From Pelagomonas calceolata (taxonomy: Eukaryota): 64,000 bases of DNA. The notes beneath the pieces were generated by a model. It ran no database searches. It was not told the origin of the DNA and saw nothing but the letters and a program-made list of their open reading frames with translations. Made by a program: the position numbers and the translations under genes. The stretch spans positions 3,782,001-3,846,000 of the forward strand of contig CAKKNE010000003.1 of NCBI GenBank assembly GCA_918797485.1, written 5' to 3'. Positions 16,258 through 34,490 of this stretch are shown here, piece after piece (position 1 is the first letter of the stretch; each line of letters begins with the position of its first letter).

Positions 16258-16430
16258 AGCGGCCGAGGTTGCTGCGACTGCCGCTGCAGCGAACGCTTTG
16301 CTAGAAAACTTTAGAACCACACGGGCTTATCTCTGAGACGCAGCGACCGACGGCGGAAGCGTCCTGTGCCCAGGGGAGCAGTGTTTGACAACTTGCACAA
16401 AAGTGCTCTCTCAACAAGCAGCAACTACAA

Positions 16431-18984: not shown

Positions 18985-21900
18985 ATGCCGAGCCTCGCCG
19001 TGGTCGCCGGCGCCCTGCTGCTGCGCTTGGGCAGCGCCGCGCCGCCGCGGGCGCCCGCGCGGGGCGGCATCAAACTGAGCAGCTGCCCCAGGGGCTCGAG
19101 CCCCGCCGCGGCGCACGACGACAGCGAAGCGGCGATCGAAACATTTGCTCGAGACTACGAAATCACCACGTCCTACGAAAACGGCAGCACGTGCGCCGCG
19201 CAAGCCGGCGAGAACGGCCTCGACGGCGCTGCCCCCAAGGCCCTGGCGACGAGCGCCGCAGCGAGGAACACGTGGCTCCAGCTCTACAAGAACAACGGCG
19301 CGGACGGCCTCTACGCCGACGCGTTCGACTCCGAGCCTATCAAAGGCGCGGCGACGACCGAGCTCGACTCGAACAAGTACCAGGCGGGCGGGGTGCACGC
19401 GCTCCACGCCATCGAGCAGACCGTCGGCAGCGACGTGCAATACAAGAACTACCGGTCGGACGGCACCATATTGATGTTGGCGGCCCCGACCAAGGGCGGC
19501 GTCGACGTCTTGGACGTCGCGTCCGCCGAGCTGGCGCCTACGCCCGGCACCACGATGCAGTTCAAGGGCGGCGTCGACGAAGAAGAAGCGGCCCAGAGCT
19601 ACCTTGGGCGGACTTCCTGGTGCATCTTCCAGGTACTCGCTTCGGTGGTTCCGCGGCGCAGTAGCTCGGCGAAGGGCGCGGCCTGGCGCTTGTCCGTCGT
19701 CGGCTACATGGTTATTTGGGACGTCGCCCGCGCTGCACCAAGCTCCATACCGACGACCGGCGCGCCGACGTACTGGACGCCCTGGCCGACACGTCGGCCG
19801 TCGTTTGCGCCGACGTCGACGCCGGCGCCAACCTTGACGCCCGCGCCAACGCGAGCGCCGACGACGCCCGCGCCAACGCGAGCGCCGACACCTGTGCCGA
19901 CGTCGACGCCCGCGCCGACACCTGCACCGACGTCGCTGCCCACCGCGACGCCAGCGCCTACGACGGCTGCGCCTACGGCTACACCCATTGTCGCGGACGA
20001 CAGCACTATTAGAACGGCCGTTTTGCTCTGGTTCTCGGACCGCGCCGCCGCCATCCGCACGTACGGCCACATCTCGACGTGGGAGACATCAGGGGTGACG
20101 GACATGTCCTGCCTATTTGGTACCAATACGTGGTGTGGCGGTAACACAGCCGCAGCGTCCTTTAACGAGGACATCGGCGCGTGGGGCACCTCCGGCGTAA
20201 CGAGGATGTACGGGATGTTCTGGGGCGCCTCGTCGTTCAATCAGAATGTTGGCGGCTGGAGCGTCGAGAACGTGTATGAGATGGGCCAGATGTTCACCTC
20301 CGCCTCGGCCTTTAATCAGGACATCGGCGGCTGGAGCGTCGACAACGTCAGGGATATGCACTACATGTTCCACTACGCCTCGGCCTTCGACCAGGACCTC
20401 AACTGGTGCCTAGGCGACGACGTGAACCTCGACGAGGCGTTTTCCGGCACGCCGTGCGTGTCGACGTCGTGCGGCATCGTGCGGGGCCGTTCTGAGGGTG
20501 GCATATGTGTGACGCTTGCGCCGACATTCTTCGATGGCGCATTTAGCGACGAAAGCATCCGCACGGCAGTCCGAGCCTGGATGGAGGACCGCGCCGCCGC
20601 CGAGGCGACGTACGGCCACATTTCTTCGTGGGAGACCTCCGAGGTGACGGACATGTCGAAGTTGTTTTGCGTGTGGCAGGATTGGATGGGAGGCGAATCG
20701 TGGTATGACGATTGCGTCTCGGAGGCGTCCTTCAACGAGGACATCGGCGCGTGGGACACCTCTGGCGTAACGAGGATGTACGGGATGTTCTGGTACGCCT
20801 CGTCGTTCAATCAGAATATTGGCGGCTGGAGCGTAGGAAACGTCAGGGATATGGTCTACATGTTCAACTACGCCTCGTCGTTCAATCAGAATATAGGCGG
20901 CTGGAACGTCGAAAACGTCAGGGATATGCACCAGATGTTCAGCGGCGCCTCGTCATTTAATCAGGACATCGGCGGCTGGCGCGTCGAGCAGGTCCTAGAT
21001 ATAAGCTACATGTTCCACTATGCCTCGGCCTTCGACCAAGACCTCGGCTGGTGCGTGGGCGACGGCGTCTTTGATGGCGACCTGTACGCTACGTTCGTCG
21101 GCACCCCGTGCGCGTCGACGTCGTGCGGCGTGAGGAAAGTTGCGGGTGGCTGCGCACCATCGCCCGCGCCCACCGCCTCGGCGGCGCCGACCCCGAGCAA
21201 CATTATGAGCGACTCCAGAATCGGCACGGCAGTCCGAGCCTGGGCGGAGGACCGCGCCGCCGCCGAGGCGACGTACGGCCACATCTCGACGTGGGAGACT
21301 GGGGGGGTGACGGACATGTCGTTCTTGTTTTGCGTGCGGCAGGACCATATGGAGGGCGAATCGTGGCATGACTATTGCGTCTTTTCAACGTCGTCCTTTA
21401 ACGAGGACATTGGCGCGTGGGACACCTCTGGCGTCACGTCGATGTCCAGGATGTTCAGCGGCGCCTCGGCCTTCGACCAGGACATCAGCGCCTGGAACGT
21501 CGAAAACGTCAGGGATATGTCCTGGATGTTCGGCTCCGCCTCGTTCTTCAATCAGAACATAGCCGGTTGGAGCGTTGCCCGAGTCATCACTATGCACAAG
21601 ATGTTCCAAGGCGCCTCGGCGTTCAACCAGCCGCTGAACGACTGGCGCGTCGACAACGTCAGGGATATGTCCTGGATGTTCACCAGCGCCTCGTCGTTCA
21701 ATCAGAACATAGGCGGCTGGAACGTCGAACAAGTCACCAATATGAACTGGATGTTCACCTCCGCCTCGGCCTTCGACCAGGACATCAGCGCCTGGAGCGT
21801 CGAACAAGTCACCAATATGCACTGGATGTTCGGACACGCCTCGTCCTTTAATCAGGACATCAGCGGCTGGCGCGTCGAAAACGTCAGGGACATGGACCAT

Positions 21901-24900
21901 ATGTTCCACCACGCCTCGGCCTTCGACCAGGACCTCGGCGGCTGGCGCGTCGAGCAGGTCACGGATATGCACTACATGTTCCACTGGGCCTCGTCCTTCA
22001 GCCAGAACCTCAACTGGTGCCTAGGCGACGACGTGAACCTCGACGAGGCGTTCTCCGGCACGCTGTGCGCGCCGACGTCGTGCGGCGTCCAACAGCGTGC
22101 TGCAGGCAGCTGCGCGCCGTCGCCCGCGCCGACGACGACCGTCCCCACGATCAGTGCCGCCCCCACGATGGACGTCTGCCCATCGATCGGCGAATCCGAC
22201 TACGAGGGCCGCACGCTCTACTGCTTCGAAGCCGGGGGCGAGATTCACAACGTCCTGCGCGTCGAAGATGAACAAACAACCTGCCGCCACACGGACGAGA
22301 ACAGCTGCCCAGACGGCTTCGACATCTGGGTGCCGCGGAACTACGAGCACCTCCAAGCTGTTTACAGCCTCGCGAGAGACTGGTGGCCGCACGAGGACTG
22401 GCGCGCCTACGAGATGATGAACCCAGTGGGCGTCTACCGCGAAGAGAACGGCTGCGGTCCGTGCCACGACTCTGCGATGAACAGCGAGGCGATGGCCGGC
22501 TACACTGGTGTCGCGTGGCAGAGTGTAGCGGGCGATCCGTGGTTCCTGTCGACAAACGGCATCGACGACTGGGGAGAGTACGAAGCCGGCTGTTGGCTCG
22601 GGATCCAGCACTACTGGGATCAGGGATTGAAGCTCTACTCCTCCCATTGCAATATGTGCCAATCGTCTTACCTGTGCTCGACGAACCTGGCCAAGGCAGC
22701 TCCCAGTCCAGCGCCGACGACGGCCGTCCCCACGATCAGCGCGGCGCCAACGATGGACGTCTGCTCTTCTGTTGGCGAGTTCGAGTACGAGGGCCGCACG
22801 CTCTACTGCGTCGAGGCCGAGGGCGAGCTCCACAACGTCCTGCGCGTCGAGGGCGGCCGCAATACGTGCCGCCACACGGACGAGAACAGCTGCCCCGCCG
22901 GCTTCGACATCTGGGTGCCGCGCAGCTACGCGCACGCGTTCGCAGTCGTCGAGGCGACGGGCGGGCAAGACCTCCAGCATCACAACTTCCTCGTCGGCAT
23001 TTACCGCGACGAGGACGGCTGCGGCTCGTGCCAGGACTACGCCATGAACAGCGACGCCATGGCCACATACGGCGGCGTCGGCTGGCGGGGCGTTGCAAGA
23101 GGCGATTGGTTCATGCGGTCGTCGGCCTACCACCAGCCAGATGGCGACTACGAAGCAGGCTGCTGGCTTGGCACGAACGGCTGGACGGCCGACGAGGGCT
23201 TCGAATTCTACGACAGCCAGTGTCACCAGTGCTTCTCGACGTACCTGTGCTCGACGAATACCGTCAAAGCCGCGCCCAGCCCCGCGCCGACGCTCACCCC
23301 GGCGCCGTCAATCAGCCTGGCGCCCACGATTGACATCTGCGCGGCGTCCGGCGAGTTCGAGTACGAGGGCCACACGCTCTACTGCGTCGAGGCTGCGGGC
23401 GAGATCCACAGCGTTCTGCCTGTCAACTTTGGTCAAACGACGTGCCGTTACACGGACGAGAACAGCTGCCCCGCCGGCTTCGACATCTGGGTGCCGCGGA
23501 ACTACGAGCACCTCCAAGCTGTTTACAGCCTCGCGAGAGACTGGTGGCCGCACGAGGACTGGCGTGCCTATGAGATGATGAACCCCGTGGGCGTCTACCG
23601 CGAAGAGAACGGCTGCGGGCCGTGCTGGGAGTACGAGATGAACAGCGAGGCGATGGCCGGCTACACTGGTGTCGCGTGGCAGAGTGTAGCGGGCGATCCG
23701 TGGTTCCTGCGGTCGACGAGCGGCTTGGATCACTGGGACGAGTACGAAGCTGGCTGCTGGCTCGGAGTTCATGGCCACTGGGATCAGGGGCTGGCGTTAT
23801 ACACTAACCGCTGCAATAACTGCCAGTCGTCGTACCTGTGCTCGACGAACCTAGGCAAGGCAGCTCCCAGTCCAGCGCCGACGACGGCCGTCCCCACGAT
23901 CAGCGCCGCGCCCACGATGGACGTCTGCTCTTCTGTTGGCGAGTTCGAGTACGAGGGCCGCACGCTCTACTGCGTCGAGGCCGAGGGCGAGCTCCACAAC
24001 GTCCTGCGCGTCGAGGGCGGCCGCAATACGTGCCGCCACACGGACGAGAACAGCTGCCCCGCCGGCTTCGACATCTGGGTGCCGCGCAGCTACGCGCACG
24101 CGTTCGCAGTCGTCGAGGCGACGGGCGGGCAAGACCTCCAGCATCACAACTTCCTCGTCGGCATTTACCGCGACGAGGACGGCTGCGGCTCGTGCCAGGA
24201 CTACGCCATGAACAGCGACGCCATGGCCACATACGGCGGCGTCGGCTGGCGGGGCGTTGCAAGAGGCGATTGGTTCATGCGGTCGTCGGCCTACCACCAG
24301 CCAGATGGCGACTACGAAGCAGGCTGCTGGCTTGGCACGAACGGCTGGACGGCCGACGAGGGCTTCGAATTCTACGACAGCCAGTGTCACCAGTGCTTCT
24401 CGACGTACCTGTGCTCGACGAATACCGTCAAAGCCGCGCCCAGCCCCGCGCCGACGCTCACCCCGGCGCCGTCAATCAGCCTGGCGCCCACGATCGACAT
24501 CTGCGCGGCGTCCGGCGAGTTCGAGTACGAGGGCCGCACGCTCTACTGCGTCGAGGCAGCGGGCGAGATCCACAGTGTTCTGCCTGTGTTTGGTCAAACG
24601 ACGTGCCGATACACGGACGAGAACAGCTGCCCAGACGGCTTCGACATCTGGGTGCCGCGGAACTACGAGCACCTCCAAGCTGTCTACGGGATCGTGCAAA
24701 GCTTTGAGATGATGAGTCCCGTGGGCGTCTACCGCGAAGAGAATGGCTGCGGGCCGTGCCACGACTATGCGATGAACAGCGAGGCGATGGCCGGCTACAC
24801 TGGTGTTGCTTGGCAGAGCGTCGCGGGCGATCCGTGGTTCCTGCGGTCGACAAGCGGCATCGACGACTGGGGAGAGTACGAGGCCGGCTGTTGGCTCGGC

Positions 24901-27900
24901 CTTCAGCACTACTGGGATCAGGGATTGAAGGTCTACTCCTCCCATTGCAATATGTGCCAGTCGTCGTACCTGTGCTCGACGAACGTGGCCAAGGCCGCGC
25001 CGTCGCCCGCGCCCACCGCCTCGGCGGCGCCGACCCCGAGCAACGTTGTGAGCGACGCCAGAATCCGCATGGCAGTCCGAGCCTGGATGGAGGACCGCGC
25101 CGCCGCCGAGGCGACGTACGGCCACATCTCGACGTGGGAGACTGGCGGGGTGACGGACATGTCGCACTTGTTTTGCGTGCGGCAGGATTGGATGGAAGGC
25201 GAATCGTGGGACGATTGCGTTTCGGAGGCGTCCTTCAACGAAGACATCGGCGCGTGGGACACCTCTGGCGTCACCGATATGAACCACATGTTCGAAGGCG
25301 CCTCGTCGTTCAATCAGGCGATCGGCGTGTGGACGGTCGGCGAAGTCAGGCAGATGCAGGGCATGTTTAAGAGTGCGCATATGTTTGACCAAGACCTAAG
25401 CGCCTGGACTGTCGACAGCGTTACAGATATGGCTTGGATGTTCGCCTGGGCCTCGTCGTTCAATCAGAATATAGGCGGCTGGAGCGTTGCACAAGTCACC
25501 AATATGAACAACATGTTCAGCGGCGCCTCGGCCTTTAATCAGGACATCGGCGGCTGGCGCGTCTACAGCGTCAGGGATATGCACTACATGTTCCACCACG
25601 CCTCGGCCTTCGACCAGGACCTCAGTGCGTGGGAAACCTCTGGTGTTACGAACATGCACCAGATGTTCAGCTGGGCCTCGTCGTTCGACCAGGACATCAG
25701 CGCCTGGAACGTCGAGAACGTCAGGGACATGCACTACATGTTCCACTACGCCTCGGCCTTCGACCAGGACCTCGGCTGGTGCGTCGACAACGACGTGAAC
25801 CTCGACGAGGCGTTCTCCGGCACGCCGTGCGTGTCGACGTCGTGCGGCGTCGTGCAGGGCCGTTCTGAGGGTGGCATATGTGTGACGCTTGCACCGACAT
25901 TCTTCGATGGAGCATTTGGCGACGAAAGTATCCGCACGGCAGTCCGAGCCTGGATGGAGGACCGCGCCGCCGCCGAGGCGATGTACGGCCACATCTCGAC
26001 GTGGGAGACTTCCGGGGTGACAGACATGTCGTATTTGCTTTGCGCGAATCAATGGGATATAAACTGCAACTCGGTCGCGGCGTCTTTTAACGAGGACATC
26101 GGCGCGTGGGACACCTCTGGCGTAACGAGGATGTACGGGATGTTCGGGGACGCCTCGTCGTTCAATCAGAATATAGGCGGTTGGAGCGTTGCCAACGTTC
26201 ATGGGATGGGCCGGATGTTCGAAGGCGCCTCGGCCTTCGACCAGGACATAGGCGGCTGGCGCGTCGAGAACGTCAGGGACATGCACCAGATGTTCAACTC
26301 CGCCTCGGCCTTCAGCCAGAACCTCAACTGGTGCGTAGGCGACGACGTGAACCTCGACGAGGCGTTCTCCGGCACGCTGTGCGCGCCGACGTCGTGCGGC
26401 GTCCAACAGCGTGCTGCAGGCAGCTGCGCGCCGTCGCCCGCGCCGACGACGACCGTCCCCACGATCAGTGCCGCCCCCACGATGGACGTCTGCCCATCGA
26501 TCGGCGAATCCGACTACGAGGGCCGCACGCTCTACTGCTTCGAAGCCGGGGGCGAGATCCATAACATTCTGCGCGTCGAAGATGAACAAACAACCTGCCG
26601 CCACACGGACGAGAACAGCTGCCCAGACGGCTTCGACATCTGGGTGCCGCGGAACTACGAGCACCTCCAAGCTGTTTACAGCCTCGCGAGAGACTGGTGG
26701 CCGCACGAGGACTGGCGCGCCTACGAGATGATGAACCCAGTGGGCGTCTACCGCGAAGAGAACGGCTGCGGTCCGTGCCACGACTCTGCGATGAACAGCG
26801 AGGCGATGGCCGGCTACACTGGTGTCGCTTGGCAGAGCGTCGCGGGCGATCCGTGGTTCCTGCGGTCGACGGGCGGCATCGACGACTGGGGAGAGTACGA
26901 AGCCGGCTGTTGGCTCGGGATCCAGCACTACTGGGATCAGGGATTGAAGGTCTACTCCTCCCATTGCAATATGTGCCAGTCGTCGTACCTGTGCTCCACG
27001 AACCTGGCCAAGGCAGCTCCCAGTCCCGCGCCGACGACGGCCGTCCCCACGATCAGCGCTGCGCCAACGATGGACGTCTGCTCTTCTGTTGGCGAATTCG
27101 ACTACGAGGGCCGCACGCTGCACTGCGTCGAGGCCGAGGGCGAGATCCACAACGTCCTGCGCGTCGAGGGCGGCCGCAATACGTGCCGCCACACGGACGA
27201 GAACAGCTGCCCCGCCGGCTTCGACATCTGGGTGCCGCGCAGCTACGCGCACGCGTTCGCAGTCGTCGAGGCAACGGGCTGGCAGGACCTCCAGCATCAC
27301 AACTTCCTCGTCGGCATTTACCGCGACGAGGACGGCTGCGGTTCGTGCCAGGACTACGCGATGAACAGCGACGCCATGGCCACATACGGCGGCGTCGGCT
27401 GGCGGGGCGTTGCAAGAGGCGATTGGTTCATGCGGTCGTCGGCCTACCACCGGCCAGATGGCGACTACGAAGCCGGCTGCTGGCTTGGCACGCACGGCTG
27501 GACGGCCGACGAGGGCTTCGAGTTCGAAGACAGCCAGTGTCACCGGTGCTTCTCGACGTACCTGTGCTCGACGAATACCGCAAAGGCCGCGCCCAGTCCC
27601 GCGCCGACGATCACGCCGCGGCCGACGGTGACCGCTGCGCCGACTGTCGAGATTTGTTCGACAACCGGCGAGTTCGAGCACGAGGGCCACACACTCTACT
27701 GCGTCGAGGCAGCGGGCGAGATCCACAGCGTCCTGCCTGTCAACTTTGGTCAAACGACCTGCCGATACACGGACGAGAACAGCTGCCCAGACGGCTTCGA
27801 CATCTGGGTGCCGCGCAGCTACGAGCACCTCCGGGCGGTCTACGATCTCGCGAGAGAGGAGTGGCGCGCCTTCGAGACGATGAGGCCCGTGGGTATCTAC

Positions 27901-30900
27901 CGCGATGGGGACGGCTGCGGCTCGTGCGGCGACTACGCGATGAACAGCGACGCCATGGCGGACTACGACGGCGTCGGCTGGCGGAGCGTCGCGGGCGATC
28001 CGTGGTTCCTGCGGTCGACAAACGGCTTGGAAAACCATGGCGAGTACGAGGCCGGCTGCTGGCTCGGGTTTCATGGCCACTGGGATCAGGGGCTGGCACT
28101 ATACACTTCCCACTGCAATAACTGCCAGTCGTCGTACCTGTGCTCGACGAACCTAGCCAAGGCAGCTCCCAGTCCCGCGCCGACGACGGCCGTCCCCACG
28201 ATCAGTGTCGCACCCACGATGGATGTGTGCTCTTCTGTTGGCGAGTTCGACTACGAGGGCCGCACGCTGCACTGCGTCGAGGCCGAGGGCGAGATCCACA
28301 ACGTCCTGCGCGTCGAGGGCGGCCGCGATACGTGCCGCCACACGGACGAGAACAGCTGCCCCGCCGGCTTCGACATCTGGGTGCCGCGCAGCTACGCGCA
28401 CGCGTTCGCAGTCCTCGAGGCAACGGGCTGGCAGGACCTCCACCACGAGCACTTTCTCGTCGGCATTTACCGCGACGAGGACGGCTGCGGCTCGTGCCAG
28501 GACTACGCGATGAACAGCGACGCCATGGCCACGTACAGCGGCGTCGGCTGGCAAAGCGTTGCCGGGGATCCGTGGTTCATGCGGTCGTCGACCTACAGCG
28601 AGCCAAACGGCGACTACGAAGCCGGCTGCTGGCTTCGTACGAACGGCTGGACGGCCGGCGAGGGCTTCGAGTTCAACGATGCGACCTGTAATTATTGCTT
28701 CTCGACGTACCTGTGCTCGACGAATACCGCAAAGGCAGCGCCCAGTCCCGCGCCGACGCTCACGCTGGGGCCGACCGCGACCGCGGTGCCGACTGTCGAG
28801 ATGTGTTCTTCTTCCGGCGAGTTCGCGTACGAGGGCCACACGCTCTACTGCGTCGAGGCAGCGGGCGAGATCCACAGCGTTTTGCCCGTCAACTTTGGTC
28901 GCACGACGTGCCGTTACACGGACGAGAACAGCTGCCCAGACGGCTTCGACATCTGGGTGCCGCGGAACTACGAGCACCTCCAAGCTGTCTACGGGATCGT
29001 GCAAAGCTTTGAGATGATGAGTCCCGTGGGCGTCTACCGCGAAGAGAATGGCTGCGGGCCGTGCCACGACTATGCGATGAACAGCAAGGCGATGGCCGGC
29101 TACACTGGTGTTGCTTGGCAGAGCGTCGCGGGCGATCCGTGGTTCCTGCGGTCGACAAGCGGCATCGACGACTGGGGAGAGTACGAGGCCGGCTGTTGGA
29201 TCGGGGTTCATGGCCACTGGGATCAGGGGCTGGCGTTATACACTTCCCACTGCAATATGTGCCAGTCGTCGTACCTGTGCTCGACGAACGTGGCCAAGGC
29301 CGCGCCGTCGCCCGCGCCCACCGCCTCGGCGGCGCCGACCCCGAGCAACATTATGAGCGACGCCAGAATCCGCACGGCAGTCCGAGCCTGGGCGGAGGAC
29401 CGCGCCGCCGCCGAGGCGACGTACGGCCACATCTCGACGTGGGACACATCAGGAGTGACGGACATGTCGTATTTGTTTTGCGTGCGGCAGGATTGGATGG
29501 AAGGCCAATCGTGGTATGACGATTGCGTCTCGGAGGCGTCCTTCAACGAGGACATCGGCGCGTGGGACACCTCTGGCGTAACGAGGATGTACGGGATGTT
29601 CTGGGGCGCCTCATCGTTCAATCAGAATATTGGCGGCTGGAGCGTCGAGAACGTTGATGAGATGGGCCACATGTTCACCTCCGCCTCGGCCTTCGACCAG
29701 GACATCAGTGGTTGGGCGGTCCAAAGCGTCACGACGATGTACAGGATGTTCGCCGGCGCCTCGTCGTTCAATCAGAATATAGGCGGCTGGAGCGTTGCAC
29801 AAGTCACCAATATGAACAACATGTTCAGCGGCGCCTCGGCCTTTAATCAGGACATCGGCGGCTGGAGCGTCGAGAACGTCAGGGACATGCACTACATGTT
29901 CCACTACGCCTCGGCCTTCGACCAGGACCTCGGCTGGTGCGTCGACAACGACGTGAACCTCGACGAGGCGTTCTCCGGCACGCCGTGCGTGTCGACGTCG
30001 TGCGGAATCGTGCGGGGCCGTTCTGAGGGTGGCATATGTGTGACACTTGCGCCGACATTCTTCGATGGCGCATTTGGTGACGAAAGTATCCGCACGGCAG
30101 TCCGAGCCTGGATGGAGGACCGCGCCGCCCCCGAGGCGACGTACGGCCACATCTCGACGTGGGAGACATCGGGGGTGACGGACATGTCGCATTTGTTTTG
30201 CGTGCGGCAGGATTGGATGGAAGGCGAACCGTGGTATGACGATTGCGTCTTATCGACGTCGTCCTTCAACGAGGACATCGGCGCGTGGGACACCTCCGGC
30301 GTAACGAGGATGTACGGGATGTTCTGGGGCGCCTCGTCGTTCAATCAGAATATTGGCGGCTGGAGCGTCGAGAACGTTGATGAGATGGGCCACATGTTCA
30401 CCTCCGCCTCGGCCTTCGACCAGGACATCAGTGGTTGGGCGGTCCAAAGCGTCACGACGATGTACAGGATGTTCGCCGGCGCCTCGTCGTTCAATCAGAA
30501 CATAGGCGGCTGGAACGTCGAACAAGTCACCAATATGCACTGGATGTTCGGACACGCCTCGTCCTTTAATCAGAACATTGGCGGCTGGAGCGTCGAGAAG
30601 GTCACGGATATGCACTACATGTTCCACCACGCCTCGGCCTTCGACCAGGACCTCGGCTGGTGTGTCGACAACGATGTATACCTCGACGAGGCGTTCTCCG
30701 GCAGCGGGTGCTGCTCAATGTCCTGCGGCGTCGCTCAAAAGGACGAAACCGGCGACTGCCAAATCATAGATTCGTGGGGCTGCTACTACTACTACGACGA
30801 CGACGACGACGACGACGATGGGGCCACGGAACTCGTCATGTCAACGGGACTCGCGGCGATTGGCATCACGTTCACGGGCCTCACCATCGCGGCGATCGCG

Positions 30901-31143
30901 AATGCGGTCCAGGAACAATGCGCCCTGGGCCCCACGATCGTCTACGAAGCCGGCACGACGCACCCGTACTACATCTCACCAAATCTATGCACCATCGGGA
31001 CCAAGACCTTTTCGTCGGACAAGACAGTTCGCGACGCGTCTCCGCGCAAGGTCTGCCGCAAGTTCTGCGAGGCTGCATCGGAGAAGGGCAAACTGGCGCT
31101 CAAGCACGTCCAGGGCCTGACGTGCTACTGCAAACGGAGGTAG
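18985..31143 (+). CDS. Giant (~4000 aa) surface protein: 7 DUF285/BspA-like repeat modules, 10 Cys/Trp-rich putative lectin-like domains, P/T linkers, C-terminal TM segment
   Basis: Uninterrupted ORF; 25-aa W.(T/V)..V..M..MF..AS.FNQ.I repeats; domain DENSCP.GFDIWVPR...YEAGCWL...YLCSTN x10; hydrophobic GLAAIGITFTGLTIAAIANA near the end; true start uncertain. Confidence 0.85.
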   Translation: MPSLAVVAGALLLRLGSAAPPRAPARGGIKLSSCPRGSSPAAAHDDSEAAIETFARDYEITTSYENGSTCAAQAGENGLDGAAPKALATSAAARNTWLQLYKNNGADGLYADAFDSEPIKGAATTELDSNKYQAGGVHALHAIEQTVGSDVQYKNYRSDGTILMLAAPTKGGVDVLDVASAELAPTPGTTMQFKGGVDEEEAAQSYLGRTSWCIFQVLASVVPRRSSSAKGAAWRLSVVGYMVIWDVARAAPSSIPTTGAPTYWTPWPTRRPSFAPTSTPAPTLTPAPTRAPTTPAPTRAPTPVPTSTPAPTPAPTSLPTATPAPTTAAPTATPIVADDSTIRTAVLLWFSDRAAAIRTYGHISTWETSGVTDMSCLFGTNTWCGGNTAAASFNEDIGAWGTSGVTRMYGMFWGASSFNQNVGGWSVENVYEMGQMFTSASAFNQDIGGWSVDNVRDMHYMFHYASAFDQDLNWCLGDDVNLDEAFSGTPCVSTSCGIVRGRSEGGICVTLAPTFFDGAFSDESIRTAVRAWMEDRAAAEATYGHISSWETSEVTDMSKLFCVWQDWMGGESWYDDCVSEASFNEDIGAWDTSGVTRMYGMFWYASSFNQNIGGWSVGNVRDMVYMFNYASSFNQNIGGWNVENVRDMHQMFSGASSFNQDIGGWRVEQVLDISYMFHYASAFDQDLGWCVGDGVFDGDLYATFVGTPCASTSCGVRKVAGGCAPSPAPTASAAPTPSNIMSDSRIGTAVRAWAEDRAAAEATYGHISTWETGGVTDMSFLFCVRQDHMEGESWHDYCVFSTSSFNEDIGAWDTSGVTSMSRMFSGASAFDQDISAWNVENVRDMSWMFGSASFFNQNIAGWSVARVITMHKMFQGASAFNQPLNDWRVDNVRDMSWMFTSASSFNQNIGGWNVEQVTNMNWMFTSASAFDQDISAWSVEQVTNMHWMFGHASSFNQDISGWRVENVRDMDHMFHHASAFDQDLGGWRVEQVTDMHYMFHWASSFSQNLNWCLGDDVNLDEAFSGTLCAPTSCGVQQRAAGSCAPSPAPTTTVPTISAAPTMDVCPSIGESDYEGRTLYCFEAGGEIHNVLRVEDEQTTCRHTDENSCPDGFDIWVPRNYEHLQAVYSLARDWWPHEDWRAYEMMNPVGVYREENGCGPCHDSAMNSEAMAGYTGVAWQSVAGDPWFLSTNGIDDWGEYEAGCWLGIQHYWDQGLKLYSSHCNMCQSSYLCSTNLAKAAPSPAPTTAVPTISAAPTMDVCSSVGEFEYEGRTLYCVEAEGELHNVLRVEGGRNTCRHTDENSCPAGFDIWVPRSYAHAFAVVEATGGQDLQHHNFLVGIYRDEDGCGSCQDYAMNSDAMATYGGVGWRGVARGDWFMRSSAYHQPDGDYEAGCWLGTNGWTADEGFEFYDSQCHQCFSTYLCSTNTVKAAPSPAPTLTPAPSISLAPTIDICAASGEFEYEGHTLYCVEAAGEIHSVLPVNFGQTTCRYTDENSCPAGFDIWVPRNYEHLQAVYSLARDWWPHEDWRAYEMMNPVGVYREENGCGPCWEYEMNSEAMAGYTGVAWQSVAGDPWFLRSTSGLDHWDEYEAGCWLGVHGHWDQGLALYTNRCNNCQSSYLCSTNLGKAAPSPAPTTAVPTISAAPTMDVCSSVGEFEYEGRTLYCVEAEGELHNVLRVEGGRNTCRHTDENSCPAGFDIWVPRSYAHAFAVVEATGGQDLQHHNFLVGIYRDEDGCGSCQDYAMNSDAMATYGGVGWRGVARGDWFMRSSAYHQPDGDYEAGCWLGTNGWTADEGFEFYDSQCHQCFSTYLCSTNTVKAAPSPAPTLTPAPSISLAPTIDICAASGEFEYEGRTLYCVEAAGEIHSVLPVFGQTTCRYTDENSCPDGFDIWVPRNYEHLQAVYGIVQSFEMMSPVGVYREENGCGPCHDYAMNSEAMAGYTGVAWQSVAGDPWFLRSTSGIDDWGEYEAGCWLGLQHYWDQGLKVYSSHCNMCQSSYLCSTNVAKAAPSPAPTASAAPTPSNVVSDARIRMAVRAWMEDRAAAEATYGHISTWETGGVTDMSHLFCVRQDWMEGESWDDCVSEASFNEDIGAWDTSGVTDMNHMFEGASSFNQAIGVWTVGEVRQMQGMFKSAHMFDQDLSAWTVDSVTDMAWMFAWASSFNQNIGGWSVAQVTNMNNMFSGASAFNQDIGGWRVYSVRDMHYMFHHASAFDQDLSAWETSGVTNMHQMFSWASSFDQDISAWNVENVRDMHYMFHYASAFDQDLGWCVDNDVNLDEAFSGTPCVSTSCGVVQGRSEGGICVTLAPTFFDGAFGDESIRTAVRAWMEDRAAAEAMYGHISTWETSGVTDMSYLLCANQWDINCNSVAASFNEDIGAWDTSGVTRMYGMFGDASSFNQNIGGWSVANVHGMGRMFEGASAFDQDIGGWRVENVRDMHQMFNSASAFSQNLNWCVGDDVNLDEAFSGTLCAPTSCGVQQRAAGSCAPSPAPTTTVPTISAAPTMDVCPSIGESDYEGRTLYCFEAGGEIHNILRVEDEQTTCRHTDENSCPDGFDIWVPRNYEHLQAVYSLARDWWPHEDWRAYEMMNPVGVYREENGCGPCHDSAMNSEAMAGYTGVAWQSVAGDPWFLRSTGGIDDWGEYEAGCWLGIQHYWDQGLKVYSSHCNMCQSSYLCSTNLAKAAPSPAPTTAVPTISAAPTMDVCSSVGEFDYEGRTLHCVEAEGEIHNVLRVEGGRNTCRHTDENSCPAGFDIWVPRSYAHAFAVVEATGWQDLQHHNFLVGIYRDEDGCGSCQDYAMNSDAMATYGGVGWRGVARGDWFMRSSAYHRPDGDYEAGCWLGTHGWTADEGFEFEDSQCHRCFSTYLCSTNTAKAAPSPAPTITPRPTVTAAPTVEICSTTGEFEHEGHTLYCVEAAGEIHSVLPVNFGQTTCRYTDENSCPDGFDIWVPRSYEHLRAVYDLAREEWRAFETMRPVGIYRDGDGCGSCGDYAMNSDAMADYDGVGWRSVAGDPWFLRSTNGLENHGEYEAGCWLGFHGHWDQGLALYTSHCNNCQSSYLCSTNLAKAAPSPAPTTAVPTISVAPTMDVCSSVGEFDYEGRTLHCVEAEGEIHNVLRVEGGRDTCRHTDENSCPAGFDIWVPRSYAHAFAVLEATGWQDLHHEHFLVGIYRDEDGCGSCQDYAMNSDAMATYSGVGWQSVAGDPWFMRSSTYSEPNGDYEAGCWLRTNGWTAGEGFEFNDATCNYCFSTYLCSTNTAKAAPSPAPTLTLGPTATAVPTVEMCSSSGEFAYEGHTLYCVEAAGEIHSVLPVNFGRTTCRYTDENSCPDGFDIWVPRNYEHLQAVYGIVQSFEMMSPVGVYREENGCGPCHDYAMNSKAMAGYTGVAWQSVAGDPWFLRSTSGIDDWGEYEAGCWIGVHGHWDQGLALYTSHCNMCQSSYLCSTNVAKAAPSPAPTASAAPTPSNIMSDARIRTAVRAWAEDRAAAEATYGHISTWDTSGVTDMSYLFCVRQDWMEGQSWYDDCVSEASFNEDIGAWDTSGVTRMYGMFWGASSFNQNIGGWSVENVDEMGHMFTSASAFDQDISGWAVQSVTTMYRMFAGASSFNQNIGGWSVAQVTNMNNMFSGASAFNQDIGGWSVENVRDMHYMFHYASAFDQDLGWCVDNDVNLDEAFSGTPCVSTSCGIVRGRSEGGICVTLAPTFFDGAFGDESIRTAVRAWMEDRAAPEATYGHISTWETSGVTDMSHLFCVRQDWMEGEPWYDDCVLSTSSFNEDIGAWDTSGVTRMYGMFWGASSFNQNIGGWSVENVDEMGHMFTSASAFDQDISGWAVQSVTTMYRMFAGASSFNQNIGGWNVEQVTNMHWMFGHASSFNQNIGGWSVEKVTDMHYMFHHASAFDQDLGWCVDNDVYLDEAFSGSGCCSMSCGVAQKDETGDCQIIDSWGCYYYYDDDDDDDDGATELVMSTGLAAIGITFTGLTIAAIANAVQEQCALGPTIVYEAGTTHPYYISPNLCTIGTKTFSSDKTVRDASPRKVCRKFCEAASEKGKLALKHVQGLTCYCKRR
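22168..24984 (+). repeat. Block 1 of five tandem Cys/Trp domains (A-B-A-B-A), AB period 1164 bp
   Basis: Domain starts at ~22168, 22752, 23329, 23916, 24493; the B copies at 22752 and 23916 are near-identical in DNA. Confidence 0.9.
26482..29289 (+). repeat. Block 2 of five tandem Cys/Trp domains; block offset 4314 bp from block 1
   Basis: MDVCPSIGESDYEGR at 22168 and 26482; further copies at ~27070, 27646, 28219, 28795. Confidence 0.9.
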
Positions 31144-31250: not shown

Positions 31251-33424
31251 TCACGCGCCGGGCAGGCGGACGCGCTTCATCGGCCCCCCGGGCACCGTGG
31301 GGTTCGGCGCGCACCACGCCCGCCGCAGCGCCGGGCACGCGTCGGCGACGGGCGGCCAGCTCCCACCGTTCTTAACCGATCGGACCTCCTCCACCGTCCG
31401 CGGACAGAGCGACAGGTTCTCGACGCCGTCGGCCCGAACTAAGACGTCGTCCTCGAGTCGCACGCCCCCAAAACCCCGGAACTCTCGCAGTCGGTCGGCG
31501 TTCAGGAACTTTGCGAGAGAAGGGTCCTTGAGCGCGTCGTCCAACAACCGGTCGATGAAGTAGCAGCCCGGCTCCACAGTGAGCATCATACCCTCCTCGA
31601 CGATCCGCGCCGTTCTCAATTTATTGAGGCCCGGTCTCTGCGGTCGGTCCGGGTTGCCGTCCAGGTAGCCGCCGACCTGCGCGGACGTCGAACTTCGGGC
31701 GCCCCGCGGCGTCGACGCGACGCCGTGACCGTACGAACCTAACTCACCGCGTGATTTCCACACCGGCACACACGTCGTGCGTGTCCAGCCCGATCAGGTG
31801 CCCGAGGCCGTGCGGCATGAAGGTCGAGCCCAGGTCGGCCGCCAGCATCTCCTCAATATCGCCCGCGAGGACGCCTCCCCTGGTTAAGTGTTCCAGGATC
31901 GTCCGCTCGGCGAGGCGGTGCATGTCCGGCCACGCGACCTGTGTGGAAATCAACCAGTGTGTTGCGTGCACTTCTCGGCGATGACGCGGCCGTGCTGGCT
32001 CCGTCGAGCGGTAAGGAACCGGCATCGCCACGCCATCGAGCAGGCGTCGCGTCGAGAACGCGCCGTAAAATTTTGATTTCCACACAGCACGCGACGCCCG
32101 GCTTCAAGGCACCAATGACCGCCACCTGCGCCGCCAGCACGGCCTCGTGGACCAAAATTTGATCCGACGTGAAGTCCGAGGAGATGGGGAAGCTGCACGT
32201 GATGTCGCTGGCATAACAATGGTACTCCGCGCCCATGTCCAATAGCGCCTGGTCGCCCTCTTTAAGTAACCGCGCGTTCGGCGCGCCTGCGTGGTCATCG
32301 ACTCTACGCGCCGTCGCGCGGACGGTTCCCACGCGGAGCCCGCGCCCGCGTGGCCGTAGTGCAGCACGGCCGGGTTCGGGCCACAAGCACAGATGCACGT
32401 GTACGCCATGTGGCGACACCCCCCGTGCGTGTACGTGTGGTGCATGAACAGCGACTCGAGCTGGTACTCCATCTGGCCCGGCCTCGCGTACCGCATCACC
32501 TCCGAGTGCGCCATGGAAGAGACCTGTGTGCTGGATCGTCGCGTCGACCTCCACGCCATCGACGCGACGCCTGCTCGATAGCGTGGCGGTGCCGGTTCCT
32601 CACTGCTCGACGGAGCCAGCGCAGCCGCGCCATCGCCGAGAAAATGAGCACCCGACGCACTGGTTGATTTCCACGCCGGACGACACCCAGTTGACGTACC
32701 GCATGACCTCGACCTCGGCCGCCGTTTTTCTGGTCCTCAAGTCGGCGATGGCGTCGAATAATGTGGTAAGGTCCCGTCGCTCGCGAAAAACGTCGTCGCC
32801 GTCGAAGGAAGCCGGCGCCGCGTAGTTGCCGCTGTCGCTGTTCCGCCCGTGCAACAAGTACACCTTAGCTGTGTCGTCCGTCGCGATCGCGTCCGCGAGC
32901 CAGTTCTGGAGGCTGCCCGTGAAGTAGCACGCATCGACCGCGTACTTTTCGACAAACGCTGCGCACGACGGCGCCCTACCACAAAAGACCTCGTAGGCCT
33001 CGCTGCGTAGATCGGGCACAAATAGAGTCGCGGAGCCGTCCTGCAAGTTTACTGCACCGTAGCAACCCGGCTCGGAGACCCCGAACAGCCACTGGAAGTA
33101 CGACTCCTGGCGGAAGACGGGTTCATGGTCCGTGTCGTACCTCAATTGCTGGTCGCCGCCCTGCACTAACACAACGCCTCGATGCGCCTTCATGCGGTCG
33201 CAGAGCCTCGCCCTATTCAGCGCATGCAGCGCCATCGGCACGCGGTAGGTATCTAACCCTTGGTCGTACTTCGCGCCGATCTGGCCCGTTTCGAGGCACG
33301 TGCGGCACTCGGCCTCGCTGATGGAGCGCCGGTCCGCGAGCGAGGGCATGCGACCCCTCGCCGCGAGGGCTTCCGTTTGCGCGTGCAGCAGGGCTAACAG
33401 GAGCCAGCTGCGGAGGCTTGGCAT
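31251..33424 (-). CDS. PEPD: Xaa-Pro dipeptidase (prolidase, M24B); exons 33424-32687, 32523-32346, 32286-32096, 31938-31774, 31676-31251
   Basis: [86 protein letters not shown]; the four predicted introns keep frame exactly. Confidence 0.95.
31677..31773 (-). mobile_element. Degenerate introner-derived intron (one TIR retained)
   Basis: Minus strand: THD|gtgtgtgc-cggtgtggaaatca...cgcag|VGG. Confidence 0.6.
31939..32087. mobile_element. Intact introner element, 149 bp, perfect TIRs and 8-bp TSD
   Basis: cacgcgac + ctgtgtggaaatcaa ... ttgatttccacacag + cacgcgac; intron on minus strand = 31939-32095. Confidence 0.92.
32524..32678. mobile_element. Introner element, same family, partly diverged
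   Basis: Minus strand starts cggcgtggaaatcaaccagtgcgtcgggtg and ends cacacag; TSD gtgtcgtc/gtctcttc (6/8); internal sequence aligns with 31939-32087 in the opposite orientation; intron 32524-32686. Confidence 0.85.
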
Positions 33425-33647
33425 GCTTGCTCTGTGCGCAGGTAGAAAGAAGACGAAGCGCTCGAGAAAACCAGGGTGAGTGAGTAGTGTGGTGTTTTGC
33501 GAGCACGTTATGTGCAGAATAGCTTGAATAGCTTCACCAGCGTGTGTTTTGCGTTTTGCTCTGCCGCTAGTAGGCCGCGCATGGTCAAACCAGCTCGCAG
33601 TTCGGTGCGACTTGCATCTCGACGCGCTGACGCAGCCAATCCCACCA

Positions 33648-34490
33648 ATGCGCACCCTCCTCCTCGTGTGCTCGACGGCTGCCGCCTTGCGGAGCCCGGC
33701 GCACCGCGTACGGCTCCCCAGCTTGCAGAGGGCCGCCGCGCCGGCCGCACCGCCCGCACCGGTGGCCGCCGCGGGCAACAAGGTCCAGAAGCGCCTCATC
33801 GCTCTCCTATCCTTCAACGCGGGCGTGGCGGACGTCGTGCTCTTCAAGAAGCACGGCTGCTTCGCGACGATGATGACCGGCAACCTCATCAAGGGCACGT
33901 GCGCCTTAGTGGATGCGAAGTGGGCGGACGCGCGATTCTTTGGATGTATGATCCTGAGTTATCTCGCCGGTTGCAGCGGCCAGCGCATTTTGGACCAACG
34001 CGCGACGCCGCGCACGAAGTCGCGAGTCATCGCGCTGGCGACGTTCCTGCTGTTCCGGTGCTCGGACGTGTTCGGCGGCGCGTCGGCGAGGCGGGGCGCG
34101 TTGTGGCTCGCGGCCGGCTTCGGCCTCGTGAACGCGGTCTCCGTCGACGTATTATTAACGATCACGTGGATGCTCACGATCCACATGCAAAAACTTACAA
34201 ATTACGCGACGGACGCGATTGGGTTATCTGGCGCGAAGGCCAAGGCGTCGGCGAAGTTTGGGCCCGTCCTGCGGCGGTCCTGCGTCGTGCTCGCTCTCTT
34301 CGCCGCGGGCATCGGCGCGGGCCACTACTTCTGCGAGGCCTGCTTGGACATGGCGGGCTTCTCCACGTTGTTCGGCGCGTGGTACGCGCTCATCGTCCTC
34401 AGCCACGACCAGGGCCGCGTCGGCCTCGACTCGCTCGGCAAGGCGCTGCTGCTGAACAAGAACGCGAACCCGGGGCTGCTGGACGAGTGA
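33648..34490 (+). CDS. DUF1275 (YoaK-like) membrane protein with N-terminal targeting peptide
   Basis: LLSFNAGVADVVLF....FATMMTGNL is the DUF1275 signature; multiple TM helices; signal-like MRTLLLVCSTAAA. Confidence 0.75.
   Translation: MRTLLLVCSTAAALRSPAHRVRLPSLQRAAAPAAPPAPVAAAGNKVQKRLIALLSFNAGVADVVLFKKHGCFATMMTGNLIKGTCALVDAKWADARFFGCMILSYLAGCSGQRILDQRATPRTKSRVIALATFLLFRCSDVFGGASARRGALWLAAGFGLVNAVSVDVLLTITWMLTIHMQKLTNYATDAIGLSGAKAKASAKFGPVLRRSCVVLALFAAGIGAGHYFCEACLDMAGFSTLFGAWYALIVLSHDQGRVGLDSLGKALLLNKNANPGLLDE

What the first reader, a model, noticed from the sequence alone, without database searches (positions are those of the whole stretch)
22168..29289. Ten copies of an unassigned Cys/Trp domain carrying QPD/RPD/EPN lectin motifs
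Seen: B-type copies have, at the same aligned position before GDYEAGCW, QPD (23134-23142), QPD (24298-24306), RPD (27451-27459) and EPN (28600-28608); A-type copies lack the motif. Established: QPD and EPN are the galactose- and mannose-type Ca2+/sugar-binding motifs of C-type lectin domains. Inference: a divergent C-type-lectin-like fold arrayed as alternating binding and non-binding modules with mixed specificity, fused to bacterial-type repeats. This would be a candidate recognition, adhesion or defence receptor in a picoalga.
Basis: partly seen in the sequence, partly recalled or inferred. Interest (0 to 1): 0.8.

Follow-up and report, generated by a model that had tools for sequence, protein, structure and literature searches.

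The report
Hidden C-type lectin array in alga
A 4,052-residue protein of what is likely the marine picoalga Pelagomonas carries ten copies of a domain that Pfam does not recognise but that is predicted to fold as a C-type lectin; one copy keeps the full calcium/mannose-type motif and likely binds sugar, the others carry altered or lost motifs, and the same domain also occurs in cyanophage virion proteins.

Summary
Observation confirmed. Ten ~168-aa Cys/Trp domains lie in two A-B-A-B-A arrays between DUF285/PARCEL blocks of one 4,052-aa ORF. QPD, QPD, RPD and EPN are at the stated coordinates. An AlphaFold model of the EPN copy (pLDDT 92.7) matches only C-type-lectin folds: 50 of 50 listed rows from 48,161 chains, best Z 8.0. 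The motif is the family norm. Of 295 homologous domains, 178 have EPN and 248 have [EQ]P[NDS], followed by FND/WND-x-x-C; 16 read EPN...WND literally. Cyanophage virion homologues lost the nearby cysteines but kept EPN and ND. Only the EPN copy keeps both motifs (EPN+FND). The two QPD copies are one identical duplicate with FYD, and the RPD copy has FED. Environmental alleles do swap EPN/QPD and FND/FYD/FHD. A copies lack both motifs but are under purifying selection. The EPN copy is transcribed. Best reading: a likely surface-exposed, multivalent recognition/adhesion protein built from an apparently undescribed, mobile C-type-lectin subfamily. No binding has been shown.

The parts
18985..31143 (+). 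Whole gene, one uninterrupted ORF, 4,052 aa
   Evidence: identical to P0296 (4,052 aa, held by NCBI/UniRef/nr on a 5.39-Mb contig)
18985..19038 (+). Putative signal peptide (short hydrophobic core; judged by eye, no predictor run)
   Evidence: sequence; it did not pass the 19-residue hydropathy cut of 1.6
19039..19998 (+). Unassigned N-terminal region (~250 aa) followed by a Pro/Thr-rich stalk
   Evidence: no Pfam hit, no usable Atlas hit
19999..22089 (+). DUF285/PARCEL blocks 1-3 (19999-20478, 20548-21132, 21211-22089)
   Evidence: PF03382, 1124.6 bits for the whole protein; TIGR02167 on block 3; bounds
22171..22686 (+). R1, A-type CTLD-like copy (DDW / LYS; no Ca-site motifs)
22756..23259 (+). 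R2, B-type copy: QPD 23134-23142, FYD 23206-23214
23332..23850 (+). R3, A-type copy (DHW / LYT)
23920..24423 (+). R4, B-type copy identical to R2: QPD 24298-24306, FYD 24370-24378
24496..24984 (+). R5, A-type copy (DDW / VYS)
25054..26403 (+). DUF285/PARCEL blocks 4-5 (25054-25851, 25921-26403)
26485..27003 (+). R6, A-type copy, 98% identical to R1
27073..27576 (+). R7, B-type copy: RPD 27451-27459, FED 27523-27531
27649..28152 (+). R8, A-type copy (ENH / LYT)
28222..28725 (+). R9, B-type copy with both Ca2+ site-2 motifs: EPN 28600-28608, candidate third acidic ligand Asp 28612-28614, FND 28672-28680
   Evidence: model pLDDT 92.7; CTLD fold; transcribed (P0297)
28798..29289 (+). R10, A-type copy (DDW / LYT)
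29359..30732 (+). DUF285/PARCEL blocks 6-7 (29359-30009, 30079-30732)
30790..31143 (+). Acidic tract, weakly hydrophobic stretch from 30832 (possible membrane anchor) and a ~75-aa Cys-rich tail without a Pfam hit
   Evidence: hydropathy 1.72 over 19 residues
21817..29931 (+). Internal tandem duplication: 21817-25623 matches 26131-29931 at 89.9% over 3.8 kb; each half holds one A-B-A-B-A array

Best explanation
The ten repeats are predicted to be divergent long-form C-type-lectin domains, strung on Pro/Thr linkers in a likely cell-surface or secreted multivalent recognition/adhesion protein, in which the EPN copy likely binds mannose/fucose/glucose-type sugars through a Ca2+ ion. SHOWN: the gene is intact, the EPN copy is transcribed, the predicted fold is CTLD, and the EPN triad and an ND-x-x-C motif are the conserved core of a large family. 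INFERRED: in R9, Glu127, Asn129, probably Asp131, Asn152 and Asp153 hold Ca2+ around a cis-Pro, as at site 2 of animal lectins, and the ion binds two neighbouring sugar hydroxyls (~70%). The QPD/FYD copies keep four of the five candidate ligands and may bind galactosides weakly or in a changed way (~35%). The RPD copy and the six A copies probably do not use this Ca site and act as Ca-independent binding surfaces or spacers. Duplication and gene conversion among copies reshuffle the binding loops, so alleles differ in what they present. The ligand (bacterial or viral glycan, own wall or exopolymer) is unknown.
For: Fold: model pLDDT 92.7, pTM 0.88. All 41 Foldseek rows listed are CTLDs. VIA second look: best Z 8.8, rmsd 3.2 A, 128 residues. 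Unbiased VIA search of 48,161 chains: 50 of 50 listed rows are CTLD-fold, best Z 8.0, rmsd 3.2 A, 123 aligned, spanning model residues 4-168. ESM Atlas: 25 of 30 hits fall in clusters carrying Lectin_C (29% of members in the best one, score 0.94). Motifs in 295 complete homologous domains: EPN 178, [EQ]P[NDS] 248, central Pro 282, Asp131 248, Asp153 263, FND 167, WND 17, EPN+WND 16. Among 55 representatives below 60% identity, 32 keep both motifs, 11 lose both and 12 keep one. Cys136/Cys156 covary (phi 0.94), with the spacing xND-x-x-C. Viral homologues: 22 of 26 distinct domains have EPN+FND/YND, while 25 of 25 scorable ones lack both Cys136 and Cys156, so the motifs outlast the disulfide. 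The domain is fused in other proteins to extracellular modules: Lectin_C, LRR, FG-GAP, SRCR, LamG, F5/8, PA14, WSC, kringle. Stranded poly-A reads cover the EPN region at mean depth 13-38 in two runs of one sample, and a contig from another study matches 28503-28725 with 0 differences. Environmental alleles of the B copy read EPN+FYD, EPN+FHD and QPD+FHD. Bivalve lectins with QPD+FLD are listed as Ca-dependent asialofetuin binders (PMC12842671 Table 4, passage).
Against: No Foldseek hit reached E<=0.001 (best 8.4e-3), and Z 8 is at the level the tool calls middling. No sequence-level link to canonical CTLDs: Pfam Lectin_C misses the domain; PDB sequence searches gave only SP-A at E 0.6 below spurious ARF hits and nothing relevant otherwise; hhalign against three canonical domains gave probability 0.2%. 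DSSP shows no alpha1 helix before residue 58, and WIGL is replaced by VGIY. Nine of ten copies lack the complete motif pair. No positive selection was detected: pN/pS in the loop region is 0.66 (B) and 0.39 (A), Fisher p 0.18 and 0.63. Signal peptide and anchor are weak and were judged without a predictor. Motifs mispredict sugars and Ca dependence in invertebrate lectins. Environmental alleles come from short-read assemblies of a repeat and may be partly chimeric.
Confidence: 0.65

Rival explanations
1. The fold is CTLD and the EPN/ND site holds Ca2+, but the ligand is not a simple sugar. The domain would bind protein, lipid, mineral or ice, as tetranectin, eggshell proteins and type II antifreeze proteins do (their functions are recalled, the entries are listed).
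For: Non-sugar-binding CTLDs score as well as sugar binders in the fold searches. DUF285 solenoids have been likened to antifreeze proteins (PMC11992049, passages). Most copies here lack the full site.
Against: The family varies the triad through the same set seen in sugar-binding invertebrate lectins (EPN, EPS, QPS, QPN, QPD, EPD), and keeps EPN+ND in Cys-free phage virion proteins next to tail-fibre genes.
Confidence: 0.2
2. The array is mainly a structural stalk or wall component. The lectin site is ancestral and is decaying in nine of ten copies, and QPD/RPD arose by drift and conversion with no change of specificity.
For: R9 sits at the base of the B clade with branch length about 0, so QPD/RPD and FYD/FED are derived (quick tree). 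A copies lost both motifs. No dN/dS above 1. The two QPD copies are one duplicate.
Against: EPN to QPD needs two amino-acid changes that give the known alternative triad (codons). QPD recurs in an environmental allele with a different second motif. No intermediate QPN or EPD was seen among 11 Pelagomonas-like B sequences (4 window copies, 7 stored proteins, some of them the same allele). Pro128, Asp131 and Asp153 are kept in all B copies. 12 of 27 variable B columns lie in the 40 columns of the loop/hairpin region, of 175.
Confidence: 0.12
3. Part of the array is an assembly or polishing artefact: R4 is a collapsed copy of R2, or the copy number is wrong.
For: 581-bp exact identity between the R2 and R4 regions, while the matching place in the duplicate half holds the EPN copy.
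Against: The same 4,052-aa protein is in NCBI/UniRef (probably the same assembly, so not independent). The frame stays open for 12 kb. R9-R10 are confirmed by reads and an independent contig. QPD also occurs in environmental P0303.
Confidence: 0.08

Closest known systems
Animal Ca2+-dependent C-type carbohydrate-recognition domains, long form (mannose-receptor family CTLDs of MR, Endo180, DEC-205; MCL, Mincle, DCIR; codakine)
   Same: Predicted fold over the whole domain (Z 7.8-8.8, rmsd 3.1-3.5 A, 119-129 residues). EPN/QPD triad before the beta3 Cys, xND-x-x-C on beta4, inferred disulfides C3-C18, C46-C165 and C136-C156. Tandem arrays in which only some copies keep the Ca site (recalled for the mannose receptor).
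   Different: 7-18% identity, invisible to PF00059. About 168 aa, no clear alpha1, VGIY for WIGL, an inserted CGxC...AMNS segment, the third ligand probably Asp two residues after the triad, an extra C38-C159 pair in the pelagophyte-like branch, and fusion to DUF285.
Multi-CRD bivalve lectins with mixed motifs (AiCTL-9, CfLec-3/4, ScCTL-1; M6/M7 with QPD+FLD; SPL-1 with RPD)
   Same: Several CRDs in one chain with different triads and F/Y-x-D second motifs (PMC12842671, passages and Table 4).
   Different: Those are canonical Lectin_C proteins of animals. This is a distinct subfamily in an alga, with ten copies and PARCEL solenoids.
phrog_15727, cyanophage 'virion structural protein' (S-PM2 p092, S-CAM4 gp168, P-RSM6 CPXG_00189)
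   Same: Same domain at the C-terminus (R9 E 4.8e-10; Foldseek viral M4SKW9 E 4.3e-8), with EPNGDY and FND/YND.
   Different: Single copy, without the Cys136/Cys156 pair, encoded beside tail-fibre genes. Not annotated as a lectin in the records seen.
DUF285/PARCEL repeat surface proteins
   Same: 25-residue repeats with fixed hydrophobic and variable polar positions (33 units matched; PMC2996958 abstract). P. calceolata has 75 such genes (10.64898/2026.09.29.755320, passage).
   Different: No fusion to lectin domains is mentioned in the passages seen.
Ca-independent CLec-fold adhesins (Bordetella phage Mtd, Bdellovibrio Bd2740)
   Same: C-type lectin fold used for host recognition outside animals (PMC10769870, passages).
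   Different: Those have lost the Ca motif. This family keeps it, including in phages.

Membership tests
[quoted passage not shown] | Double-loop fold: beta1/beta5 pairing the ends, beta2-beta4 upper sheet, long loop | tested here: met
   On a predicted model: 50 of 50 listed rows from 48,161 chains are CTLD-fold, best Z 8.0, rmsd 3.2 A, 123 residues, model range 4-168
[quoted passage not shown] | Two flanking helices alpha1 and alpha2 | tested here: inconclusive
   DSSP shows helix 58-68 (alpha2-like) but none of 4 or more residues before it; coordinates not available
[quoted passage not shown] | At least two conserved intrachain disulfides | tested here: met
   Indirect: C136/C156 covary (287 both, 8 neither, 1 discordant; phi 0.94), C46/C165 296 both of 303; spacing ND-x-x-C and Y-x-C at the end. 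Bonds themselves not seen
[quoted passage not shown] | WIGL motif on beta2 | tested here: inconclusive
   The place is V-G-[IV]-Y-R, Gly81 in 91% of aligned homologues, strand 82-84; Trp absent
Pfam PF00059 Lectin_C | Profile match at the gathering score | tested here: not met
   No hit on window copies; 1 of 62 members hit, on a separate canonical domain
Ca2+-dependent carbohydrate-recognition domain (site 2) | EPN or QPD triad in the long loop before the beta3 Cys | tested here: met
   Met in R9 (EPN) and R2/R4 (QPD); not in R7 (RPD) or the six A copies; family 178 EPN and 6 QPD of 295
Ca2+-dependent carbohydrate-recognition domain (site 2) | WND motif on beta4 (Asn and Asp as ligands), in R9 | tested here: met
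   FND-x-x-C at 151-156, strand 148-152; literal WND in 17 of 295 homologues
Ca2+-dependent carbohydrate-recognition domain (site 2) | WND motif on beta4, in the QPD and RPD copies | tested here: not met
   FYD in R2/R4, FED in R7; Asp kept, Asn lost
Ca2+-dependent carbohydrate-recognition domain (site 2) | Third acidic ligand before the beta3 Cys (E176 in mincle) | tested here: inconclusive
   Asp131 is conserved in 248 of 295 but lies five residues before the Cys, not two; geometry not seen
Ca2+-dependent carbohydrate-recognition domain (site 2) | cis-proline in the triad | not testable with these tools
   Pro conserved in 282 of 295; no coordinates
Ca2+-dependent carbohydrate-recognition domain (site 2) | Ca2+-dependent sugar binding | not testable with these tools
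   needs a binding assay
DUF285/PARCEL repeat proteins | Tandem 25-residue amphipathic repeats above the curated cut-off | tested here: met
   PF03382 1124.6 bits against cut-off 25; TIGR02167 104.3 against 30

The most novel reading that the evidence does not exclude
An unrecognised, Pfam-invisible C-type-lectin subfamily with a working Ca2+/sugar site is used on both sides of marine host-virus encounters: Cys-free on cyanophage virions beside the tail fibres, in coccolithovirus membrane proteins, and on algal surfaces. In Pelagomonas it forms a polymorphic receptor whose copies switch naturally between the mannose (EPN) and galactose (QPD) triads and are reshuffled between alleles.
Probability: 0.3. 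Interest if true: 0.8.

Novelty: new variant of a known kind. Interest (0 to 1): 0.58.

Why it matters
It gives a fold and a testable mechanism to a domain that Pfam and NCBIfam do not name. The domain turned up in 224 proteins, including a large group of multi-copy proteins on transcript-sized contigs, and in cyanophage virion proteins. Receptors for cyanophages and algal giant viruses, and glycan recognition by abundant picoalgae, are poorly known (own knowledge). This points to specific small domains and specific residues to assay. A natural EPN/QPD switch inside one algal protein would parallel the classic engineered mannose-to-galactose switch (recalled). It also ties DUF285, an abundant phytoplankton repeat of unknown function, to a surface-recognition module.

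Tried and rejected
Pfam and NCBIfam name none of the copies tested. The weak whole-protein Pfam rows (CUB, Filo_glycop, TilS, dTDP_sugar_isom; E 0.004-0.007, below cut-off, no passing stretch) were rejected as repeat-summed noise. PDB sequence searches gave ARF, cytochrome and copper-protein rows, rejected as chance; SP-A at E 0.6 is only suggestive. hhalign against three canonical CTLDs failed (0.2%; template too shallow). The A-type fold (R5, 12 near-identical sequences) had pLDDT 43.7 and is uninformative, not evidence of misfolding. Positive selection on the binding face was not detected. The careful tree did not finish; only the quick tree is used. GTDB genome scan: one weak Acidobacteria hit (E 3e-4) that a profile search did not confirm (0 of 1 genome). 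Its patterns were specific to the window's copies, so it says little about bacteria. Bacterial presence is only inferred from P0033 (MXAN_6577-like and YCDxxxxGGGW domains). Viral contigs with algal-type queries: none. Plasmids: none. Metagenome DNA motif scan: none; protein scan: one locus, a different LRR-fused gene. The N-terminal 250 aa and the C-terminal tail remain unassigned. The 1.84-billion-protein profile search never ran, so the range given is a lower bound. Introns or an alternative start at the 5' end were not checked against reads. No whole genome was held, so paralogues outside the window were not counted; none lies elsewhere in the window. Literature: searches found no description of this domain or of these phage proteins as lectins. 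The library lacks most subscription papers and supplements were not read, so an earlier InterPro, TED or lectome assignment is not excluded.


Full report
Observation. The finding lies inside one open frame. From Met 18985 to the stop at 31143 it encodes 4,052 aa, identical to a protein held by NCBI/UniRef/nr (P0296). Near-identical UniRef fragments are labelled Pelagomonas calceolata, so the organism is inferred to be that alga. Ten domains of 163-173 aa, each with 10 Cys, form two A-B-A-B-A arrays on Pro/Thr linkers of 23-24 residues. Seven DUF285/PARCEL blocks flank them: three before, two between, two after. The two halves come from a 3.8-kb duplication (21817-25623 against 26131-29931, 89.9%). 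QPD, QPD, RPD and EPN are at the stated coordinates. The two QPD copies are identical and share 581 exact bases, so they are one event.

Is it a C-type lectin fold? Pfam and NCBIfam do not name the copies tested, and sequence searches of the PDB give nothing significant. An AlphaFold2 model of the EPN copy (R9), from a 62-sequence alignment, has pLDDT 92.7 and pTM 0.88. All 41 Foldseek rows listed are CTLDs, though none reaches E 0.001 (best 8.4e-3). Re-alignment gives Z up to 8.8, rmsd 3.2 A over 128 residues. A search of 48,161 representative chains without Foldseek lists 50 rows, all CTLD-fold by title or by my knowledge of the protein; the best is Z 8.0, and the rows span model residues 4-168. 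Z 8 alone is middling. The strength is that one fold fills the list and covers the whole domain. The ESM Atlas independently points to clusters with Lectin_C (25 of 30 hits; 29% of members in the best cluster). The cysteines fit a long-form CTLD. C136/C156 covary (phi 0.94) and C46/C165 are both present in 296 of 303; C38/C159 (phi 0.98) is an extra pair. C3-C18 as the N-terminal hairpin bond is my inference from spacing. Departures from the canonical fold: no alpha1 helix in DSSP, VGIY in place of WIGL, and an inserted CGxC...AMNS segment.

Are the motifs at the sugar site? Canonical site 2 uses the EPN/QPD triad, one further acid, and the Asn and Asp of WND on beta4 (PMC7618208, passages). 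Three homologue searches gave 39, 64 and 135 proteins (120 of the last listed). A profile found 378 domains in 224 stored proteins, three named phage proteins included. Of these, 332 were at least 110 aa and 295 were complete at both motifs. Among the 295: EPN 178, EPS 34, QPS 18, QPN 9, QPD 6; central Pro 282; the Asp of GDY 248; FND 167, FDD 37, WND 17; EPN with literal WND 16. Among 55 representatives below 60% identity, 32 keep both motifs, 11 lose both and 12 keep one. In R9, FND ends strand 148-152 and is followed by x-x-C. So EPN...ND is the ancestral, conserved core of the family and not a chance tripeptide.

What the ten copies keep. Only R9 has EPN+FND. R2/R4 have QPD+FYD, R7 has RPD+FED, and the six A copies have lost both motifs. 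On a quick tree (71 rows; the careful run did not finish) R9 sits at the base of the B clade, so QPD and RPD are derived. EPN to QPD took two amino-acid changes. Environmental relatives of the same gene show EPN+FYD (P0002, P0302, P0304), EPN+FHD (P0301) and QPD+FHD (P0303). The two motifs and the neighbouring loops therefore assort between alleles, though short-read chimeras may contribute. Bivalve lectins with QPD+FLD are listed as Ca-dependent asialofetuin binders, an RPD lectin binds without needing Ca, and triads often mispredict sugars (PMC12842671, passages and Table 4). Galactose binding by the QPD copies is thus possible but not readable from sequence. All copies are under purifying selection (pN/pS 0.32-0.66), and no excess of replacements reached significance (Fisher p 0.18 and 0.63). 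The A copies are therefore maintained, and calling them non-binding is untested. An A-copy model from a shallow alignment was uninformative (pLDDT 43.7).

Expression and location. Stranded poly-A reads from two runs of one sample cover the EPN region at mean depth 13-38, all in the orientation expected for + strand RNA. A contig from another study matches 28503-28725 with no difference. A UniRef fragment carries the R9 motifs letter for letter (P0297). A signal peptide and a C-terminal anchor are suggested by eye and by a weak hydropathy peak. Surface location is an inference, helped by the many disulfides, the Pro/Thr stalks and the extracellular partners of the domain in other proteins (Lectin_C, LRR, FG-GAP, SRCR, LamG, F5/8, PA14, WSC, kringle).

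Range of the family. Named hits are P. calceolata, Aureococcus anophagefferens and two haptophyte transcriptome entries. A large unnamed group with mostly two copies per protein lies on ~3-kb contigs; that it is dinoflagellate is my recollection only. P0033 has a myxobacterial-type architecture. A tblastn search with homologue P0037 hit 11 of 50,697 phage records, from S-PM2, S-CAM4, ACG-2014j and P-RSM6, mostly annotated 'virion structural protein'. In the three inspected, the gene lies directly after, or one gene after, a tail-fibre gene. R9 matches their family, phrog_15727, at E 4.8e-10. In 69 loci scanned there were 29 domain hits and 26 distinct sequences: 22 with EPN+FND/YND, 3 with DPS+xND and 1 cut short. 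All 25 scorable ones lack both C136 and C156. Keeping EPN and ND while losing the disulfide argues that these residues are kept for function. The model also matches an Emiliania huxleyi virus 86 putative membrane protein (Q4A2U1, E 8e-5, 40% identity over 110 columns) and four unnamed viral entries more strongly; their motifs were not checked. EhV-86's described lectins are ehv060 and ehv149 (PMC2322966 and PMC4236053, passages); ehv149 is Q4A2Y5, a different accession.

Mechanism and verdict. Most likely (0.65) this is a surface or secreted multivalent recognition/adhesion protein. R9 would bind a Man/Fuc/Glc-type sugar through Ca2+ held by Glu127, Asn129, Asp131, Asn152 and Asp153; the other copies and the variable PARCEL solenoids would add altered or Ca-independent surfaces. 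The rivals are a non-sugar ligand (0.2), a decaying structural array (0.12) and a partial assembly artefact (0.08). It works like an animal multi-CRD receptor. It belongs to the CTLD fold superfamily on the predicted structure, but not to Pfam Lectin_C, and only R9 passes the sequence tests for a Ca-dependent CRD.

Literature seen. Passages of PMC12842671, PMC7618208, PMC11992049, PMC4236053, PMC2322966, PMC10769870, 10.64898/2026.09.29.755320 and 10.1101/2024.10.30.620910; the abstract of PMC2996958; the rest as search listings only. DUF285 function is stated to be unknown. Searches found no description of this subfamily; supplements and subscription papers were not seen. The scan's earlier notes hold no look-alike sequence. 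Notes on other EPN/QPD lectins give the same caution about reading specificity from triads, and they are not counted as evidence. Novelty: new variant of a known kind. Interest 0.58.

Noticed in passing
window 31251-33958 (-): Aminopeptidase-P/prolidase-like gene (AMP_N and Peptidase_M24) broken by related ~120-150-bp inserts: 31935-32055 matches 32559-32682 inverted at 86%, and 32032-32087 matches 50073-50128. They look like introner-type repeated introns (label recalled).
   Followed up: partly
window 33528-34490 (+) over 32600-33958 (-): A DUF1275 membrane-protein gene lies head-to-head with the peptidase gene; their stop-to-stop frames overlap.
   Followed up: no
window 16389-18129 (+): Short-chain dehydrogenase with an N-terminal Cys/His cluster, upstream of the lectin gene; no link to the finding seen.
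   Followed up: no
L002:7731-8651, L003:7770-8624, L004:7293-8552: Cyanophage virion proteins beside tail-fibre genes end in a version of this domain without the Cys136/Cys156 pair but with EPNGDY and FND/YND; candidates for a sugar-binding adsorption protein.
   Followed up: partly
L024, L026, L027: In three viral contigs (two named GVMAG, giant-virus bins) the domain is internal, followed by about 260 further residues.
   Followed up: no
window 19999-30732, DUF285 units: In 33 matched 25-residue units the positions flanking M-x-x-M-F-x-x-A are the most variable (2.3-3.1 bits) and rich in His/Tyr/Trp, like a variable binding stripe on a solenoid.
   Followed up: partly
P0033, P0037-P0039, P0104-P0106: In bacterial-type and phage homologues the domain starts within a fibrinogen-like YCDxxxxGGG[WY] module, whose Cys and last strand align with the domain's own N-terminal hairpin.
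   Followed up: no
L070:1-4234: A different pelagophyte-like membrane protein with LRRs and three copies of the domain, all with degenerate motifs.
   Followed up: no
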